Shown one piece after another: positions 1 through 28,902 of a stretch of DNA of 38,864 nt. Under the pieces are notes generated by a model. The model made no database searches. It was not told the origin of the DNA and saw nothing but the letters and a program-made list of their open reading frames with translations. Position numbers and translations under genes: made by a program. The stretch comes from Methanothrix sp. Lineage in GTDB: Archaea; Halobacteriota; Methanosarcinia; Methanotrichales; Methanotrichaceae. Every line of letters starts with the position of its first letter. Position 1 is the first letter of the stretch. The DNA lies in NCBI GenBank assembly GCA_040770465.1, contig JAXGJB010000027.1, positions 1 through 38,864 of the forward strand, read 5' to 3'.

Positions 1-692
1 CCTGGGCCTGCCACCCCCAGCATTTGGGCCAGCTCAATGGTCCCGACGCCGTCCAGAAGCGTCGCCCGCCACCCCAGGGCCGCCGAGGCGATGCTCAAGG
101 CCGCCAGGGCGTGGCCGAGGTTCAGGTGGAGGTAGCGGAAGGCCCTCTCGCCGTACTTCCAGGACTCTCGCCAGGGGATGGAGGTGAGGCCGACGAGGAC
201 CGTCCCCTCCGGCAGTCTCATCTCGCGCCAGGCCTCCTCCGAGAACCGGCCTATCACCTCTAGGCCGTGCTCCCGAGGCGCGTAGTGGGCGATGGTCGGA
301 GAGTCGAAGAGCCCCGGGACCGGCCCCGAGATCAGGTACCCCTCCGTCGGGTGGAGGTTTCCGCTGGAGGGATTGACCCGCAAGGCCCATGCCGCCCCGC
401 CAGCCCGCCTCCAGGCCGATATTGCGAGGGAATCGAAGAGGAGCTGGGATACGGTCTCGAAGCTCAAGAGCCGGGGTGGGACGTTCCCCTCGGAAAGGGC
501 GAGGTCAAACTCTGGCCCCTCGCCGGGCGAGGGCTCGGGACGGGCCAGCTCCACGAGCTCTGCGCCACGGTAACGACGAAATGGGGCTGGCTCGTTTGCC
601 CAGTCCATCGTCTTCGGGCCTGGGGCCATTTTTGTGAAGCTGTGCTTTGTCGCCTGGTGGTAGGCGAGAACAGATTCGAGCTCTTGGGACAA
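1..692 (-). CDS. SagB/ThcOx-type nitroreductase-family protein, 5' part only (runs off the left edge; absent from the ORF track)
   Basis: Manual translation from TTG at 692 (GGAGG at 706-702): MSQELESVLAYHQATKH...DWANEPAPFRRY...LRVNPSSGNLHPTEGY...WRESWKYGERAFRY, motifs typical of this family; no stop before position 1. Confidence 0.85.
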   Translation of the reverse strand, partial: MSQELESVLAYHQATKHSFTKMAPGPKTMDWANEPAPFRRYRGAELVELARPEPSPGEGPEFDLALSEGNVPPRLLSFETVSQLLFDSLAISAWRRAGGAAWALRVNPSSGNLHPTEGYLISGPVPGLFDSPTIAHYAPREHGLEVIGRFSEEAWREMRLPEGTVLVGLTSIPWRESWKYGERAFRYLHLNLGHALAALSIASAALGWRATLLDGVGTIELAQMLGVAGP

Positions 693-1056
693 TTCGAGAT
701 TCCTCCTGGGCGGGTCGGGAGTCGGGGGTTGGGCTAGTTCCCTTTCTCAAGCTGTTTTATTCGTATAACAATCTGAGGCAATAACCAGAGATAATCCTCA
801 ATGGTCCGCTTCGTGAGGCCCGAATACCGAATATGTCTTTACCCATCCTTAGATATCACCATCTGATCTTTCAACTGTTCGATCTCGCGAAGTCGTATGT
901 CACCTACTAAACCGAACTCCCTCAAAGCTGGCGTTTTTGGAGAATTTCGCCAACTTTGCATAAGTGTACTATTCGATACATTCCTCACATAAGGCTACTA
1001 CTCATAGAAACCTTTTTACTTTGTGGCATTCACACAAACTAATAAGGGTGAACAAG

Positions 1057-2673
1057 ATGAGACTGAAGCTAATATACATTCTGTTGATGCTAGCATCGCT
1101 AGCAATGCCAGCCGTGGCGGATGAGGTGGAAACAGAAGTCGTATTCCCCGATCCGAACCTTGAGGATGCCGTAAGAGACACGATCGATAAACCAGAAGGT
1201 CCCATCTATGCTGCAGATCTAGAACAGATCGATCGTCTTGGGGCGAATAAAAGTAACATCAGAGATCTTACCGGGCTGGAGTATTGTAATCACCTGCAAG
1301 AACTGTGGCTAAGACGCAACGATATAACTGACGTATCTCCGCTGGCAGGCCTCACTAACCTGGAGAATCTGTACCTAGGGGGCAACCAGATAACCGATGT
1401 TTCTCCGCTGGCGGGCCTCACTAACCTGCTGAAACTTGACCTAGACGACAATCAACTAACCGACGTCTCACCTCTGGCAGGCCTCACTAAACTGCAATAT
1501 CTGGACCTAGACGATCATCAAGACGACAATCAACTAACCGACATCTCTCCGCTGGCAGGCCTCACTAACCTGGAAGATCTGTACCTAGGGGGCAACCAGA
1601 TAACCGATGTATCTCCGCTGGCTGGGCTCACTAACCTGCGATATCTGGTCCTAAGGTGGAACCGGATAACCGACGTATCTCCGCTGGCTGGGCTCACTAA
1701 CCTGAAATCTCTGAACTTATGGTACAATGAGATAACCGACGTCTCTCCCCTGATGGGGTTGACTAACCTGCAAGAACTGGGCCTTGAGCGCAATCAGATA
1801 ACCGACATCTCTCCGCTGGCGGGCCTCACTGACCTGAAATATCTGGACCTAAGTAGCAACGAGATAACCGACGTATCTCCGCTGGCAGGCCTCATTAACC
1901 TGCAATACCTGGACCTAGAGGGCAACCTGGAAGCTCTGTACCTGGGGGGCAGGGGCAATCAGATAACCGACGTCTCTCCTCTGGCAGGCCTCATTAACCT
2001 GCAATATCTGGTCCTAAGGTGGAACCGGATAACCGACGTCTCTCCTCTAGCGGGCCTCACTAACTTGCAAGAACTGCAACTAGGTGAAAACCAGATAACA
2101 AATGTCTCTCCTCTGGTGGGCCTCACTAACCTGCAAATTCTGGACCTATGGGGTAACGAGATAATCGACGTCTCTCCTCTAGCAGGCCTCACCAACCTGC
2201 AAGAACTATCCCTATCGTACAACCAGATAACCGATGTCTCTCCTCTAGCGGGCCTCACTAACCTGCAAAAACTGTACCTACAGAGGAATGAGATAACCGA
2301 CATCTCTCCTCTGGCGGGCCTCACAAAACTGCAAATTCTGAACCTAGAGAATAACGAGATAATCGACGTCTCTCCTCTAGCAGGTCTCACTAACCTGCAA
2401 GAACTGGACCTAAGTAGCAATGACATAATCGACGTCTCTCCTCTGGCAGACCTCACCAACCTGGAAAAACTGGACCTAGCATGGAACCAGATCATCGACA
2501 TTTCCCCTCTGGCGTGCCTCACTAACCTGAAAACTCTGGACCTACGGAGCAACCAGATAACAGATGTTTCTACGCTGACAGGCCTCACAAACCTGCAATA
2601 TCTGAAACTAGAGGACAACGATATAACCGACGTTTTCCCTCTAGAGGGCCTCACAGCTAAAATAACATATTAA
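1057..2673 (+). CDS. Secreted internalin-like leucine-rich repeat protein
   Basis: Signal peptide MRLKLIYILLMLASLAMPAVA from ATG 1057; cap motif FPDPNLEDAVR; about 20 repeats of LxxLxLxxNxITDVSPLAGLTN. Confidence 0.93.
   Translation: MRLKLIYILLMLASLAMPAVADEVETEVVFPDPNLEDAVRDTIDKPEGPIYAADLEQIDRLGANKSNIRDLTGLEYCNHLQELWLRRNDITDVSPLAGLTNLENLYLGGNQITDVSPLAGLTNLLKLDLDDNQLTDVSPLAGLTKLQYLDLDDHQDDNQLTDISPLAGLTNLEDLYLGGNQITDVSPLAGLTNLRYLVLRWNRITDVSPLAGLTNLKSLNLWYNEITDVSPLMGLTNLQELGLERNQITDISPLAGLTDLKYLDLSSNEITDVSPLAGLINLQYLDLEGNLEALYLGGRGNQITDVSPLAGLINLQYLVLRWNRITDVSPLAGLTNLQELQLGENQITNVSPLVGLTNLQILDLWGNEIIDVSPLAGLTNLQELSLSYNQITDVSPLAGLTNLQKLYLQRNEITDISPLAGLTKLQILNLENNEIIDVSPLAGLTNLQELDLSSNDIIDVSPLADLTNLEKLDLAWNQIIDISPLACLTNLKTLDLRSNQITDVSTLTGLTNLQYLKLEDNDITDVFPLEGLTAKITY
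1294..2655 (+). repeat. Intragenic tandem array of about 20 x 66-bp (22-aa) LRR units
   Basis: Recurring ataaccgacgtctctcctctggcgggcctcactaacctg core; two units carry insertions. Confidence 0.95.
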
Positions 2674-18381: not shown

Positions 18382-19277
18382 ACCCCACCCCTCCTCCTGC
18401 CGAGGCCGCCGCCCCGGTGGGGAAAGCCCCTCCGATTGAGGCGGAATCCCGGAGCCGTTGTCCCGGCTCCGCCCCTCTCCTCAAACTTCTTTCCAGTGTA
18501 ATGGAGGAAGACGTCGGAGAGCTTCGAGCCGTCGCCCAGACTCGCCTTCAGGTCGGCGGGGCTGCCGATGACCTTTATCCTGCCGTCGTCGAAGATCGCC
18601 ACCCGATCGCAGAGCTCTTCCGCCTCTTCGAGGTTGTGGGTCGAGATGAAGATCGTCTTTCCCCGCTCCTTCACGATCTCCTCTTTTATGAAATTTCTCA
18701 GGCCCTGGGCTGCTCCCGGATCGAGGCTCCTCGTCGGCTCGTCCATGAATAGGACCGCAGGATCGTTGAGGAGCCCCCGGGCGATGGCCATCCTCTGCTT
18801 CATCCCCGCCGAGTAGTTGAGAAACCTCTCGTCAGCGGCATACTTCAGATCCACGACCCCGAGAAGCTCGTCGACCATATTTCTGGCGTCGTCGGAGTAG
18901 AAGTTGTGAAGGGAGGCGAAGAACTCCAGGTTCTGCCTCCCGGTGAGCCTCCAGTAGAAGCTCCTCTCATCGGTGGTGACCAGGCCAATCGACTCGCGAA
19001 CCCGTCCGCTCTCCTTCTCGATGTCGAAACCGTTTATCCGGGCTGAGCCCGCCGTCGGGAGGATCAGGGTGCAGAGGATCTTTATCAGCGTCGTCTTCCC
19101 CGCGCCGTTAGGCCCGAGGATGCCGAAGACCTCCCCCTTTTCGACCACCAGGTCGACCCCGTCCACCGGCGTGATCCCCCCAATTGCGGGCCGACGACGG
19201 ACGAGGTCGACGAGCCCCCTCGGCACCGTGAACGTCTTCGTCAGCCCAATCGTCTCAATAGCCTTCTCCCCGATGAT
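18378..19277 (-). CDS. ABC-2 type exporter ATPase (probable ATC start at 19277 or 19274)
   Basis: GPNGAGKTT, YSAGMKQR, MDEPT; typical N-terminus AIETIGLTKTF lies in frame upstream of the GTG at 19226. Confidence 0.9.
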   Translation of the reverse strand: MIGEKAIETIGLTKTFTVPRGLVDLVRRRPAIGGITPVDGVDLVVEKGEVFGILGPNGAGKTTLIKILCTLILPTAGSARINGFDIEKESGRVRESIGLVTTDERSFYWRLTGRQNLEFFASLHNFYSDDARNMVDELLGVVDLKYAADERFLNYSAGMKQRMAIARGLLNDPAVLFMDEPTRSLDPGAAQGLRNFIKEEIVKERGKTIFISTHNLEEAEELCDRVAIFDDGRIKVIGSPADLKASLGDGSKLSDVFLHYTGKKFEERGGAGTTAPGFRLNRRGFPHRGGGLGRRRGGV

Positions 19278-19384
19278 CCCGCCTCCATAATGCTGCGCTG
19301 CAGACTGACGCTCCCAAAGCTGACGCTCCCGAAATCTCCATCAACAGTTTCGATCTTCAGAACAAATTCTGAACAGAGATCGTA

Positions 19385-26002: not shown

Positions 26003-26466
26003 ATCTATACCTCCTATTTTGTGATTTAATCTCACGAAATTGAGATTTAATAGCCATTATTTGAGGGTTTCGAAGACCCCATGCAATAGCGGAATTGGGG
26101 CACTGGGGTTAATATTTTTAAATATTGACAGAGAACTGCGGCGTAAGTAATCGATTATCCTCTCAGATCATGGCTCTCGGCGTTCTGGCCCTCAATCTAA
26201 AGTCATTCTCCTGGTTTACCGTCGACGATGCGATGCAATAAAACAGGCTGAAAATGGGTGGCTTGCTTTCAGTCACCGGTGAGCTGTTCCATCTTTCTCT
26301 TGAGATTTAAAGTTATCTTCAGCCTAATTTTCTCCCTACATTTGCCGAATGAGACTTGATAGATTCGATATCATCAACCATTTCCAGTCAAAAAATGAGT
26401 ATATTTTAATAAGAGTAGGTTCAACACTATCCTTCAAAGTAGAAGAACTAAGCAGGAGATGATAAT

Positions 26467-26880
26467 ATGAAAAAAACAGGCAGAGACGTTCCGACTGGGG
26501 TGTTCATCCTTGCCGGATTGTTCTTCTTAAGCGGATTCCATGGCGTGATATTTGGCGTTCTCATCAGCATTATGAGTTTTATGATCTATCTCTTCAGAGG
26601 TGGATTCGAGGCAGATACAGCATACATCATAGCGCTTGTTTTGGACGTGTCTATTAATGCTGTTGTAGGGGGTCTCTACATCCTTTGTGGCTCGTGGCTG
26701 ATCTCGCTTCAGCCCCGAGGCTGGAAGCTGGCCGCGGCCGGCTCTGCAGTATATCTTCTGCTCGTCCTTGCAAGCATCTCCCTCGGCGGAACCTCTGCGG
26801 GATTGTAGCATGCTGTAATTGCCGGGATCATTTTAGCTTACTTGAATATGCCGGCCACTAAACGGGTCTTTGGACGCTGA
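26467..26880 (+). pseudogene. Small multi-pass membrane protein with an internal TAG at 26806-26808
   Basis: AGGAG upstream; three hydrophobic helices, then TAG, then in-frame HAVIAGIILAYLNMPATKRVFGR-TGA, which looks like a fourth helix and natural terminus. Confidence 0.6.
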
Positions 26881-26909
26881 AGGTCGTGCCTTAAGAGCCA
26901 ATTTTCCTC

Positions 26910-27220
26910 AATGGCGGCCACAGACGATCCCTCCCCTCGGAGTCGCGATGGCGGGACTTCGGCCTCCGACCAGCCGTCTGTGGCCGAGGTCGTCCGAGGA
27001 TCGATCGGCCGAGAGATCTGCAGCGGGTTTCGTGGCGGCGGAGATGATGCGCCGACCAGCGCTGCAGCGAGGATGGGCGGCGGTGACTTTGTGTAGCCTA
27101 TCCGTCATGCGGCCATAGCTAAATGCAACTACGGGTTATGCACTTCAGCCTCTCAACCACCTGGAGTCCAGAGGCATCGGCGAGCCCTCCCCACCCGGTT
27201 CCAGAGGTACACAGATTCCC
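26910..27220. ncRNA. Candidate structured RNA or repeat element A (strand undetermined)
   Basis: Perfect stems 26916-26926/26975-26985 (11 bp) and 27018-27025/27060-27067 (8 bp) with nested stems; no credible ORF. Confidence 0.35.
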
Positions 27221-27272
27221 GGTGTTATAAGTCAAATATCCAAATCGTCCTTCGTCTCGACCTCTGGTTACG

Positions 27273-27293
27273 GCCCGAAATCTATATATGATA
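27273..27293 (+). promoter_or_regulatory. Putative BRE/TATA promoter for the central structured RNA
   Basis: CCCGAAATCTATATATGATA about 20-30 bp upstream of the base-paired region. Confidence 0.5.
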
Positions 27294-27305
27294 ATGATGA
27301 CAAAA

Positions 27306-27577
27306 GAGATCGTTTGCCGCGTACTGTGCGGATGTGCTGTGGCGTGAGCACAGGCTCAGGCTCCTGGCAGAAGATGCCTGCCCCAACGGGCAAAGCATGC
27401 GGCCGCCTTTCGTGACGGGCCGGCGAAAGCCAGGAGGTGCCTTTGCGGAGCCGATGTGTGCAGCGCCTGAAGGGCCGAATCTGCAAAAGAGATGCACGCC
27501 GTAACGGGCGTAGTATGGGTCCGGTCCGCATGAACCTGGGGAAACCCCGGAAGGCGCAGGACGCGGCGCAAGATCTC
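27306..27577 (+). ncRNA. Candidate multibranched non-coding RNA of about 270 nt, family unknown
   Basis: 5'/3' closing helix, many internal stems, two GAAA tetraloops, TATA-like box upstream, T-run at 27586-27590, no plus-strand ORF. Confidence 0.65.
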
Positions 27578-27699
27578 ATAATATCTTTTTCTCAGCTCAA
27601 TTAAGTTGCTCCAGCCTTTTGCAGTTGAGAGGTCCCTTCGCGGTTCCACCCCCGCAGACCGACGCGCAGAGGTGGATTCGTCCACTCGAATATGTCAGT

Positions 27700-27920
27700 A
27701 AAAAATCCGGGCAGTTAGACGACGAACGAGGCGCTCAAATGCTCAGACGCCCGCCGTCTCGCCAGTCTGGTGCGCCTCATCTCCGCCGCCCCACCTCGCC
27801 GCCGCCCCGAATCCACACTGCGCGTCTCTTGTCGACCGATCCCAGGGCGCCCTCGACCGCGAGCGCGAGCGGCGGATGAGAGGCCGGAAGCCTGCAACAG
27901 CGTATCCGACGCCGAGAGTA
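27700..27920 (-). ncRNA. Candidate structured RNA B, convergent with the central RNA
   Basis: TATA-like CTATATGATATA (27945-27934), nested GC stems, T6 run at 27705-27700 on the minus strand. Confidence 0.4.
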
Positions 27921-28020
27921 GTAAAAGCATCTGTATATCATATAGAGGTCGGAAATCCGCTTGAGCATTCAGGCACTTTTTCATCGAGAAAAAAGCGCTC
28001 CAGAAACTGCTTCTGGACCG

Positions 28021-28422
28021 CTACAACCGCGTTGATTTCGAACTTTGATCTGATCTTCTTGCCGAAACAATCCTGTTGGTTATCCCCCTCGCCAGAGAAT
28101 ATGGAACGCTGAGGAGGAATACGCCGACAATAATCGCCGGGATGACGCGCACTTGATCGAAGATTAGGTGTTGAGCGATCATGTCGAAGACGGTCGCTAT
28201 GACGATCGTCTTGGAGAGAGACTTGAGAACTCCGGCAAGTTTGGCTCTTCGGTTATCGCGGTCGACGATCAAATCGATGATAAACGGCGGTTCGCCTGCC
28301 TTTGCATCCATCGCGCCGTCGCGTATCCCCAGCAGCACCGCTACCAGTGGTTGAAAGACGAATCGAAGGCTCATAGGTCCGACGAGGCGCGCTATGACAT
28401 TTTCGGCGACGGTATCAAGCAA
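28021..28422 (-). CDS. Hypothetical membrane protein
   Basis: 133 aa with three hydrophobic segments; GPMSLRFVFQP...GIRDG. Confidence 0.8.
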   Translation of the reverse strand: MLDTVAENVIARLVGPMSLRFVFQPLVAVLLGIRDGAMDAKAGEPPFIIDLIVDRDNRRAKLAGVLKSLSKTIVIATVFDMIAQHLIFDQVRVIPAIIVGVFLLSVPYSLARGITNRIVSARRSDQSSKSTRL

Positions 28423-28902
28423 TGAGGACGTGCTTTCCCCTCCGTCTTTGGCGTATATACGTGTTTAGCTGGCTGGGCCTGGCCCACGATCATGCAAGAT
28501 CTTCAGTTTTCAGAGGGATTTAATTAGGTTCGGGCATATAAACTGGCGATCCCCAGACGATGAGTGCCAAACTCGAAGGCGATAAGCTCTCGATCCCCGA
28601 AATGATCGTACAAAACATTCATGATCCTACCGGGATCATGCACAAAGGATGAAGAACGATTTCGTGCGACACTTTTTCATGTGAAGCCTGATCTTCGTCG
28701 ACTCTAATTGAAAACGTTAAGGTAAAATCACCCAAGGAACACTAACCTGCAGAAAATCGAAGTTCTCCGGATGATGAATCATCCGGCAATATCGAATCAT
28801 CGGTGATCGGATCATACAGGGTGATCGGATCAACAGGTGGCGAATATCATCAGGCGGACAAAATCATACTTGCGGCTTGGAGGGTTTAGGAGGGTTTGCG
28901 AG

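What the first reader, a model, noticed from the sequence alone, without database searches (positions are those of the whole stretch)
27273..27590. Candidate novel ~270-nt ornate non-coding RNA with its own promoter and terminator
Seen: the two ends pair into a long closing helix (GAGATC 27306-11/GATCTC 27572-77; TGCCGCGT 27315-22/ACGCGGCG 27561-68; CTG/CAG). Internal stems are TGCGGA 27327-32/TCCGCA 27525-30; TGTGCT 27333-38/AGCACA 27347-52; CTCCT 27361-65/AGGAG 27432-36; ATGC-TGCCC-caac-GGGCA-GCAT; GGC-GAAA-GCC; TGCAG 27459-63/CTGCA 27481-85; ACGCC/GGCGT; and GGG-GAAA-CCC. The GAAA loops and G-U pairs favour the plus strand. A TATA-like box lies upstream, a T-run follows, and there is no plus-strand ORF. 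I could not match it to tRNA, SRP RNA, RNase P RNA or a complete group I/II intron. Inference: an independently transcribed large structured RNA.
Basis: partly seen in the sequence, partly recalled or inferred. Interest (0 to 1): 0.85.

Follow-up and report, generated by a model that had tools for sequence, protein, structure and literature searches.

The report
New structured RNA family in Methanotrichaceae
This is a gene for a highly folded non-coding RNA of about 256 nucleotides with its own promoter, belonging to an uncatalogued RNA family found only in the Methanothrix group of acetate-using methanogens; its function is unknown.

Summary
A BRE/TATA element lies upstream and a T5 run downstream. 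No Rfam 15 family matches. SRP RNA and RNase P RNA lie elsewhere in the genome.

The RNA is not an orphan. A covariance model built from 12 other copies hits window 27310-27574 full length (42 bits). It finds members in 73 of 105 genomes of the same family, 1-4 per genome, and in 0 of 76 and 0 of 146 genomes of other families. In 74 distinct members, 61 of 65 consensus pairs carry compensatory changes.

Most members have a second structured domain of about 210 nt. The window copy is a rare subtype (3 of 105 genomes) that lacks it and has a T-run there instead.

Contigs from RNA libraries of three studies cover 27316-27571. One contig closes head-to-tail, so the RNA may be circular.

Function is unknown. 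My best guess is a stable protein-binding scaffold RNA. Six literature searches found no description.

The parts
27270..27315 (+). Promoter block. BRE-like CCGAAA at 27275-27280 and TATA-like TCTATATAT(GATAAT) at 27281-27295, centred about 28 nt before 27316.
   Evidence: Sequence. Homology with the two other type-A genomes starts sharply at 27270-27272. Of 74 distinct family members, 51 have A[AT]CTAYNNNTAT at a fixed 27-30 nt before model position 1, and most others differ by one letter. The window's version is a spacing variant. The transcription start is inferred, not mapped.
27316..27571 (+). The RNA as covered by contigs of RNA libraries (256 nt).
   Evidence: The X1 contig covers 27316-27571 and closes on itself. 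X2 covers 27330-27571, X5 27397-27551 and X6 27324-27565. Model R1 hits 27310-27574 full length at 42 bits. The strand comes from the promoter, the T-run and G-U pairs, not from the contigs.
27315..27329 (+). P1 5' strand of the closing helix. It pairs with 27554-27568.
   Evidence: 12 of 13 family P1 pairs form in the window. In the family, 12 of 13 P1 pairs show changes on both sides.
27554..27568 (+). P1 3' strand.
   Evidence: Within type A, 27327/27556 changes U-G to G-C and U-A.
27353..27452 (+). Three-way junction arm. P4 is GGCU 27353-56 / AGCC 27449-52. P5 is CUCCUGGC 27361-68 / GCCAGGAG 27429-36, with two subtype-specific hairpins inside (27374-27398 and 27402-27424). P6 is a mini hairpin, 27438-40 / 27445-47.
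   Evidence: Mapping of the window row onto the family consensus, and folds. Family helices 4-7 all carry changes on both sides.
27492..27516 (+). P11, the most conserved element. A 4+5 bp hairpin with bulged A27512 and hexaloop GUAACG.
   Evidence: The 25-nt core hits other loci at 90-100% identity. All 9 of its P11 pairs form in the window. Family compensatory changes include A-U to G-C and C-G to U-A (helix 11).
27536..27550 (+). Local hairpin CUGGGG-AAA-CCCCGG. Its 3' half can instead form family helix P2 with 27338-27342.
   Evidence: 100% paired, no double change; P2 forms 4 of 5 pairs.
27586..27590 (+). T5 run, the likely termination signal.
   Evidence: Sequence. A T4+ run within 30 nt after the 5' domain occurs in 8 of 74 distinct members, and 6 of those 8 are type A. 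Termination at oligo-T in archaea is general knowledge, not tested here.
27578..27762 (+). Downstream block conserved with the two other type-A genomes although the flanks differ. It contains hairpins (one with a UUCG loop). Its role is unknown.
   Evidence: homology ends near 27762; alignment. The 3'-domain model R2 does not hit it at E up to 1.

Best explanation
Window 27316-27571 (+) is the gene of a stable, independently transcribed, highly structured non-coding RNA. It is a divergent paralogue ('type A') of a previously uncatalogued RNA family restricted to the Methanotrichaceae.

The family unit consists of:
- a family-specific BRE/TATA promoter;
- a 5' domain of about 170-290 nt, closed by a long terminal helix (P1), with about 11 helices and an almost invariant hairpin (P11: bulged A, hexaloop GUNAYG);
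- in most members, a second structured 3' domain of about 210 nt that ends at a T-run.

The window copy keeps P1, P4-P6 and P11 but has no recognisable 3' domain and has a T-run right after P1.

Shown here:
- family membership;
- conserved structure with compensatory changes;
- presence in RNA libraries;
- a head-to-tail joint in one assembly.

Inferred, not shown:
- a transcription start near 27312-27316;
- termination at 27586-90 followed by trimming to the helix;
- the plus strand as the transcribed strand.

My guess at function, at about one chance in three, is that it acts in trans as a protein-binding scaffold of a ribonucleoprotein. P11 would be the main recognition element. P1 would protect the ends or bring them together for ligation.
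For: Folding:
- Plus strand z -4.39, 0 of 200 shuffles as good.

Not a known family:
- No Rfam 15 match in the window at gathering score.
- Only a 13.7-bit chance hit at E up to 10.
- None over the RNA in 18 related loci or in a long member.

Family membership and spread:
- Model R1, built from 12 other copies, hits the window full length at 42 bits, E 1.1e-9 per genome.
- Members in 73 of 105 genomes of family f1 and 12 of 16 genera, 1-4 per genome.
- 0 of 76 genomes of four other families of the class.
- 0 of 146 genomes of 25 other families of the phylum.

Conserved structure:
- 61 of 65 consensus pairs have changes on both sides in 74 distinct members. Shuffles give 37.6 (sd 2.9), 0 of 500 reach the observed value, and slid controls give 19-33.
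- 91.7% of cells are paired, against 31-41% when slid.
- An all-against-all mutual-information scan ranks consensus pairs on top.

Strand:
- Frequent G-U pairs would be A-C on the other strand, for example G-U in 47 rows at columns 168/271 and U-G in 36 rows at 14/576.

Promoter:
- The motif sits at a fixed distance in 51 of 74 members.
- It is unlike the promoters of this genome's SRP and RNase P genes.

RNA libraries:
- 17 rows on record as RNA hold part of the stretch.
- Contigs from 4 runs of 3 studies cover 27316-27571 or parts of it.
- The 286-nt X1 contig (256+30) joins 27571 back to 27316.

Not coding:
- Type-A homologues differ by indels of 1, 3 and 4 nt.

No fixed neighbour:
- 40 loci share no flanking protein.
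Against: - Function is not shown by anything here.
- The alignments used for pair counts were fitted to the model, which favours the structure.
- Within type A alone there is almost no informative variation: 1-2 pairs with changes on both sides among 9 distinct sequences.
- In the window row the family helices P8-P10 map poorly. P9 forms 3 of 6 pairs.
- The family-like fold is 23 kcal/mol above the MFE.
- Contigs cannot show strand, ends or level.
- The head-to-tail joint is seen in 1 of 4 runs. Another contig at the same 3' position (X2) is plainly chimeric with an unrelated locus of the same genome, so the joint could be a library or assembly artefact.
- 32 of 105 family genomes gave no hit, under strict filters and a model biased to one subtype.
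- The 185 nt conserved downstream of the T-run are unexplained.
Confidence: 0.85

Rival explanations
1. The RNA is tied to integrative mobile elements. Either its gene is a preferred integration target (as tRNA genes are), or elements carry it as cargo. That would explain the multiple copies, the sharp unit boundaries and the differing neighbourhoods.
For: - One IMG/VR contig holds a full member (50.9 bits) about 110 nt downstream of a tyrosine-recombinase gene, with an ArdC-like gene nearby.
- tblastn with that integrase finds relatives near the RNA in L087, L089 and L047. It also finds a 34-aa fragment 57 nt from a truncated copy in L069.
- The type-A unit 27270-27762 sits in different neighbourhoods in the window and in G001/G011.
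- Inverted repeats 27034-52 / 27772-90 flank the unit.
Against: - That is 5 loci out of roughly 74 distinct members, found with one query and short flanks.
- No recurrent neighbour among 40 loci.
- No integrase relative in the window.
- No match in plasmid or phage collections.
- The 14 kb between the two copies of G001 hold purL, purQ and a Hef-type helicase-nuclease.
- tRNA genes lie nearby in only 1 of 40 loci.
- Being an integration target would not say what the RNA does.
Confidence: 0.12
2. It is a self-processing or catalytic RNA whose mature form is a covalently closed circle.
For: - A head-to-tail joint 27571 to 27316 in a closed 286-nt contig.
- The ends are held together by the 13-14 bp helix P1.
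- The conserved multi-helix core has invariant unpaired stretches.
- In long members the 5' domain would have to be released from the 3' domain.
Against: - The joint is seen in one run only, and chimeric contigs occur at the same end.
- No known ribozyme family matches.
- The flanking helix that a bulge-helix-bulge motif would need is not conserved, and it lies upstream of the predicted transcription start.
- No cleavage was tested.
Confidence: 0.1
3. The window copy is a decaying relic of a long-form gene that has lost its 3' domain and its function.
For: - It scores only 42 bits against the model, whereas the other copy in the same genome scores 248.9.
- There is no 3' domain.
- The subtype occurs in only 3 of 105 genomes.
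Against: - P1 and P11 are intact, and the subtype is kept in about six lineages at 78-100% identity with a conserved promoter and T-run.
- It is held in RNA libraries of three studies.
- Other genera carry only a 5'-domain form. In genus g7, a single 167-169-nt copy is found in 6 of 7 genomes.
Confidence: 0.06
4. It is a cis-acting leader or riboswitch of a neighbouring gene, or it encodes a small protein.
For: - The second copy in this genome lies upstream of a solute-binding-protein gene on the same strand.
- Short ORFs overlap the RNA.
Against: - In the window the next plus-strand gene starts at 28837, beyond a minus-strand gene.
- Neighbours vary among 40 loci.
- A T-run follows the RNA.
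- Frame-breaking indels separate close homologues.
Confidence: 0.03

Closest known systems
Large orphan structured bacterial RNAs (OLE, GOLLD, ROOL, raiA). The comparison is recalled; only their Rfam models were tested.
   Same: Large, many-helix RNAs with strong covariation. They are lineage-restricted, independently transcribed and were abundant RNAs of initially unknown function. Some sit next to mobile elements.
   Different: No sequence or structure match to any Rfam model. This one is archaeal, has a family-specific BRE/TATA promoter, is built of two domains with an optional 3' domain, and occurs in 1-4 paralogues per genome.
Archaeal SRP RNA (RF01857) and RNase P RNA (RF00373)
   Same: Stable archaeal RNAs of about 300 nt, closed by a terminal helix and with their own promoters.
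   Different: Both are found elsewhere in this genome at 176-210 bits. The window RNA gets no score from either model, and its promoter differs from theirs.
Archaeal circular RNAs made by the splicing endonuclease and RtcB, or by Rnl3-type ligases (recalled from the literature; no paper read here)
   Same: A head-to-tail joint in an RNA-library contig, and ends brought together by a helix.
   Different: No conserved bulge-helix-bulge motif. The flanking helix is window-specific, and the 5' end coincides with the predicted transcription start. Circularity in cells is not shown.
Transposon-encoded guide RNAs (omega RNA of TnpB/IscB including HEARO; IS110 bridge RNA)
   Same: Ornate RNAs of 150-300 nt present in several copies per genome.
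   Different: No nuclease or recombinase ORF recurs beside the RNA in 40 loci. It has its own promoter. Its 3' end is conserved rather than a variable guide.

Membership tests
Methanotrichaceae two-domain RNA family defined here (model R1) | Full-length match to the covariance model of the 5' domain | tested here: met
   27310-27574 (+), model positions 1-221 of 221, 42 bits, E 1.1e-9 per genome. The window was not in the seed alignment A1.
Methanotrichaceae two-domain RNA family defined here (model R1) | Terminal closing helix P1 and the P11 hairpin (bulged A, hexaloop) | tested here: met
   12 of 13 P1 pairs and 9 of 11 P11 pairs form in the window row. The two that fail are the outermost P11 pairs.
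Methanotrichaceae two-domain RNA family defined here (model R1) | Family-specific promoter block at a fixed distance | tested here: inconclusive
   The window has CCGAAA-TCTATATAT-GATAAT in the same place. It fails the strict motif that 51 of 74 members match, and its spacing is about 4 nt longer.
Methanotrichaceae two-domain RNA family defined here (model R1) | 3' domain (model R2) | tested here: not met
   No R2 hit in the window at E up to 1, whereas 18 of 29 sources searched have one. This feature is optional in the family, since other 5'-domain-only members exist. I therefore file the window as a 5'-domain-only subtype.
Any Rfam 15 family (4227 models) | Score at or above the family's gathering threshold | tested here: not met
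   0 matches in the whole window. The best hit at E up to 10 is 13.7 bits against a threshold of 55.
Archaeal SRP RNA / RNase P RNA | Match to RF01857 or RF00373 | tested here: not met
   No match at the locus. The genuine genes are on contigs C31/C26 and C11.
Transposon guide RNA (omega RNA, bridge RNA) | Adjacent TnpB/IscB/IS110 gene and a variable guide segment | tested here: not met
   No recurrent flanking ORF in 40 loci. No long ORF next to the RNA in the window. The 3' end is conserved.
Riboswitch or cis-regulatory leader | Conserved downstream gene on the same strand | tested here: not met
Endonuclease-dependent archaeal circular RNA | Bulge-helix-bulge motif formed by the flanks at the junction | tested here: inconclusive
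   A 6-bp flanking helix exists in the window only and is not conserved in homologues. A junction contig is seen in 1 of 4 runs. Raw reads were not available.

The most novel reading that the evidence does not exclude
These RNAs are a new class of large archaeal RNA. The 5' domain would accumulate as a covalently closed circle made without a bulge-helix-bulge motif, by ligation of ends held together by P1. It would work as a ribozyme or as the core of a lineage-specific ribonucleoprotein in the main acetate-using methane producers.
Probability: 0.15. Interest if true: 0.9.

Novelty: categorically new. Interest (0 to 1): 0.8.

Why it matters
Very few large, conserved, structured RNAs of unknown function are known from archaea. 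This family has the marks that have elsewhere pointed to important machines: many covarying helices, a dedicated promoter, presence in metatranscriptomes from digesters, wastewater and soil, and paralogues with an optional second domain.

It is confined to the Methanotrichaceae, which are among the main biological sources of methane. A defined RNA, a covariance model and precise ends make it directly testable by Northern blot, RNase R treatment, pull-down, probing and cryo-EM. Rfam-based genome annotation currently leaves these loci as empty intergenic DNA.

Tried and rejected
Known families. I ran Rfam at gathering and at permissive thresholds on the window, on 18 related loci and on a long member. 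Nothing matched at the RNA. The one real hit is an RNase P RNA that happens to lie beside a member in L018.

Literature. Six full-text searches found no description of such an RNA. Terms combined Methanosaeta, Methanothrix, Methanotrichaceae or harundinacea with non-coding, structured or circular RNA, RNA motif, covariation, sRNA and transcription start site. I read passages of only one paper (PMC13153191). It concerns a bacterial intron RNA in Methanothrix cells and is unrelated. Supplements are closed, and papers outside the library were not searched.

Cover on the flanks. In one search no contig of the four runs lay on 26400-27315 or 27572-28500.

The chimeric X2 contig. Its loose end matches own-genome contig C24 near 19031. 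That stretch has no Rfam hit at E up to 1 and folds no better than shuffles (z -0.50). I read it as a chimera, not a second RNA.

Mobile-element reading. The plasmid and phage collections gave no match. The interval between the two copies in G001 holds housekeeping genes. No empty site could be found, because the neighbourhood is rearranged among relatives.

Type-A covariation. Sixteen metagenome loci gave only about six close lineages, too few to test the subtype's own stems.

A broader model. Alignments A8 and A9 had 433 and 439 columns, above the 400 limit.

The 3' domain. Model R2 finds none in the window, L027 or L028 at E up to 1.

Full report
1. THE OBSERVATION

A script confirmed six stems letter by letter at the stated coordinates. 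The remaining hairpins are visible in the sequence and in the folds.

The plus strand 27300-27585 folds to -135.6 kcal/mol. Two hundred dinucleotide shuffles give -112.85 (sd 5.18), so z is -4.39 and none folds as well. The minus strand gives z -3.22.

Upstream lie CCGAAA (27275-80) and TCTATATAT (27281-89). Downstream lies TTTTT (27586-90). Plus-strand ORFs over the region reach only 56 and 55 aa.

2. NOT A KNOWN FAMILY

Rfam 15 finds nothing in the whole window at gathering scores. In 27150-27750 it finds only a 13.7-bit chance match at E up to 10.

The genome's own SRP RNA (209.9 and 176.3 bits, contigs C31 and C26) and RNase P RNA (209.6 bits, C11) lie elsewhere.

3. NOT AN ORPHAN

BLAST in 60 relatives found full-length homologues in only two genomes, G001 (89%) and G011 (81%). 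A 25-nt core (27492-27516) also matched many other loci at 90-100% identity.

Aligning those loci showed a shared promoter block, the 5' start TTTGCCGCG, the core hairpin and the 3' end GCGGCACAAAGC.

I built covariance model R1 from 12 of these other copies (221 positions, 65 pairs). It hits window 27310-27574 over its full length (42 bits, E 1.1e-9 per genome). It also hits a second copy in the same genome (C47, 248.9 bits).

4. SPREAD

- R1 finds members in 73 of 105 genomes of the window's family, and in 44 of the 64 that are of high quality.
- Members occur in 12 of 16 genera, at 1-4 per genome, and are 167-295 nt long.
- In a class-wide sample, 50 of 74 genomes of family f1 had a hit. 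The four other families had 0 of 76.
- In a phylum-wide sample, family f1 had 4 of 4. Twenty-five other families had 0 of 146.
- These searches used strict filters and a model biased to one subtype, so the 32 genomes without a hit are not shown to lack the RNA.
- An exact-pattern scan of one genome per prokaryotic species gave 28 stretches. Twenty-five have titles naming Methanothrix, Methanosaeta, Methanocrinis, Methanotrichaceae or Methanosarcinales.
- I re-scored 9 of those 28 with R1. One Acidithiobacillus hit is the 23-nt hairpin only and the other gives nothing. The Syntrophomonadaceae MAG hit is a partial member at the end of a 1.5-kb contig.

5. CONSERVED STRUCTURE

On 83 hits (74 distinct) aligned to R1, 91.7% of cells form standard pairs, and 61 of 65 pairs show changes on both sides.

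| Control | Pairs with changes on both sides | Cells paired |
|---|---|---|
| Observed | 61 of 65 | 91.7% |
| 500 shuffles | 37.6 (sd 2.9); 0 of 500 reach 61 | 79.7% |
| Partner slid 1-3 columns | 19-33 | 31-41% |

A smaller set of 40 gave 46 of 65 against 20.0 (sd 2.8). An all-against-all mutual-information scan of the same alignment ranks consensus pairs on top.

Two caveats apply. The alignments were fitted to the model, and the sequences are related to one another.

Frequent G-U pairs argue for the plus strand. For example, G-U occurs in 47 rows at columns 168/271 and U-G in 36 rows at columns 14/576.

6. A SECOND DOMAIN THAT THE WINDOW LACKS

In most members about 210 nt after the 5' domain are also conserved. 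They end in GACTCGATT followed by T-rich sequence.

On a MAFFT alignment of 20 of them, 13 of 38 predicted pairs show changes on both sides. Shuffles give 5.0 (sd 1.4), 0 of 500 reach the observed value, and slid controls give 2-6.

Model R2 of this domain hits 18 of 29 sources searched. It does not hit:
- the window;
- the two other type-A genomes;
- the 168-nt form of genus g7;
- L013, L016, L064, L065, L069 or L033.

The 5' domain is therefore the core, and the 3' domain is optional.

A T4+ run within 30 nt after the 5' domain occurs in 8 of 74 distinct members. Six of those eight are type A.

7. THE WINDOW'S SUBTYPE

Full-length type A occurs in 3 of 105 family genomes. It also occurs in 16 metagenome contigs that fall into about six lineages at 78-100% identity.

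Homology among the three genomes runs from 27270-27272 to about 27762 and stops there. The flanks differ, and the neighbouring 133-aa gene lies elsewhere in the other two genomes.

Mapped onto the family consensus, the window forms the following:
- P1: 12 of 13 pairs
- P2: 4 of 5 pairs (27338-42 with 27545-49)
- P3
- P4: 27353-56 with 27449-52
- P5: 27361-67 with 27430-36
- a shortened P6
- P11

P8-P10 map poorly.

These are TGTGCT/AGCACA, the GGGG-AAA-CCCC hairpin and TGCGGA/TCCGCA.

Within type A there is too little variation to choose between them.

| Fold | Energy (kcal/mol) |
|---|---|
| MFE | -125.7 |
| Family-like fold enforced | -102.3 |

The outermost GAGATC/GATCTC helix is not kept in homologues.

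8. PROMOTER

A block of about 45 nt before the RNA is nearly invariant across genera (AACCGCAAACTACAAATATCTATAACGATTATATAG). It is more conserved than the RNA body.

Of 74 distinct members, 51 match A[AT]CTAYNNNTAT at 27-30 nt before model position 1. Most others differ by one letter.

The SRP and RNase P genes of this genome have different upstream sequences.

In the window the TATA element is centred about 28 nt before G27316, which fits a transcription start at 27312-27316. This is an inference.

9. RNA LIBRARIES

Seventeen rows on record as RNA hold part of 27200-27700. Four runs of one digester study hold 0.44-0.52 of the sampled words.

I laid contigs of four runs from three studies on 26400-28500:

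| Run | Piece covered | Note |
|---|---|---|
| X1 | 27316-27571 | 286-nt contig; word depth 1230 |
| X2 | 27330-27571 | chimeric 3821-nt contig |
| X5 | 27397-27551 | loose end is an Illumina adapter |
| X6 | 27324-27434, 27405-27536, 27507-27565 | loose ends are Illumina adapters |

The X1 contig is 256 + 30 nt and joins 27571 back to 27316, which is a closed cycle.

The X2 contig runs on from 27571 into a stretch that matches own-genome contig C24. That shows chimeras form at this 3' end.

Contigs cannot show strand, ends or level, and word depth is a poor measure of expression. I conclude only two things: the stretch is present in RNA libraries, and molecules or artefacts with a head-to-tail junction exist in one of them.

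10. CONTEXT

- No protein family recurs beside the RNA in 40 loci.
- tRNA genes are nearby in 1 of 40 loci.
- The window's neighbours are unrelated to one another. They are a periplasmic binding protein, two small proteins without a Pfam match and a gene of the AP_endonuc_2 family.
- A tyrosine-recombinase gene lies beside a member on one IMG/VR contig. Relatives of it lie near four other members, one of them truncated.
- The collections of plasmids and phages hold nothing similar.
- The 14 kb between the two copies of G001 are housekeeping genes.

11. READING

The window holds a real structured RNA gene of a new, lineage-restricted family (confidence about 0.85).

Nothing here shows what it does. 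I commit, at about one chance in three, to a trans-acting scaffold of a ribonucleoprotein. Four observations point that way:
- the invariant P11 hairpin;
- the clamp-like P1;
- the dedicated promoter;
- the lack of any fixed neighbour or variable guide.

The rivals are a ribozyme or circular RNA (0.10), a link to integrative elements (0.12), a decaying paralogue (0.06), and a cis-regulatory or coding element (0.03).

Noticed in passing
window 27034-27052 and 27772-27790 (also 27061-86 / 27780-805): GC-rich inverted repeats (19 nt, 95% complementary, 719 nt apart) flank the RNA unit. In G007 a single copy of this motif lies just past the orthologue of the 133-aa gene, with no type-A RNA there. 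This could mark an old insertion or inversion.
   Followed up: partly
window 27578-27762: About 185 nt downstream of the T-run are conserved with G001 and G011 although the flanks differ. They hold hairpins that change on both strands between lineages, for example CCACC/GGUGG versus UCUUGC/GCAAGA, and a GUGGA-UUCG-UCCAC hairpin. The 3'-domain model does not match. Role unknown.
   Followed up: partly
own genome G000: C31:26108-26423 and C26:8961-9276: There are two SRP RNA genes with identical upstream and downstream flanks. This is either a real duplication or redundant assembly.
   Followed up: no
own genome G000 contig C24, about 18860-19300 (L112): This non-coding stretch upstream of a thymidylate-kinase-like ORF is fused to the window RNA's 3' end in a chimeric metatranscriptome contig. 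It contains motifs resembling the RNA's 3' and 5' ends in permuted order. No Rfam hit, and fold z -0.50.
   Followed up: partly
L129:2338-3302; L069:143-496; L047; L087; L089: Tyrosine-recombinase genes or fragments lie near five family members. One case is on an IMG/VR contig with an ArdC-like gene. Another is a 34-aa integrase fragment 57 nt from a copy truncated after the P4-P7 arm. The RNA gene may serve as an integration site.
   Followed up: partly
L018:963-1278 (-) and 1365-1570 (+): In one relative an RNase P RNA gene lies divergently, about 90 nt from a family member.
   Followed up: no
L002 (G000:C47), RNA at 1443-1663 (-) and ORF 319-1176 (-): The long-form copy of this genome lies directly upstream, on the same strand, of a gene for an SBP_bac_11 solute-binding protein. 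This arrangement is not seen at other loci.
   Followed up: partly
alignment A7, columns 16/476, 35/478, 38/478, 21/474: Column pairs outside the consensus structure covary (MI 0.38-0.70). They link the P1-P2 joining strand with the 3' base of P11. This could be a tertiary contact or merely subtype signal.
   Followed up: no
G001:C1:1683410-1683631 and 1697440-1697706 (L130): The long-form and type-A copies of G001 lie 14 kb apart on the same strand, with purL, purQ, a Hef-type helicase-nuclease, LemA and DUF2207 genes between them.
   Followed up: yes
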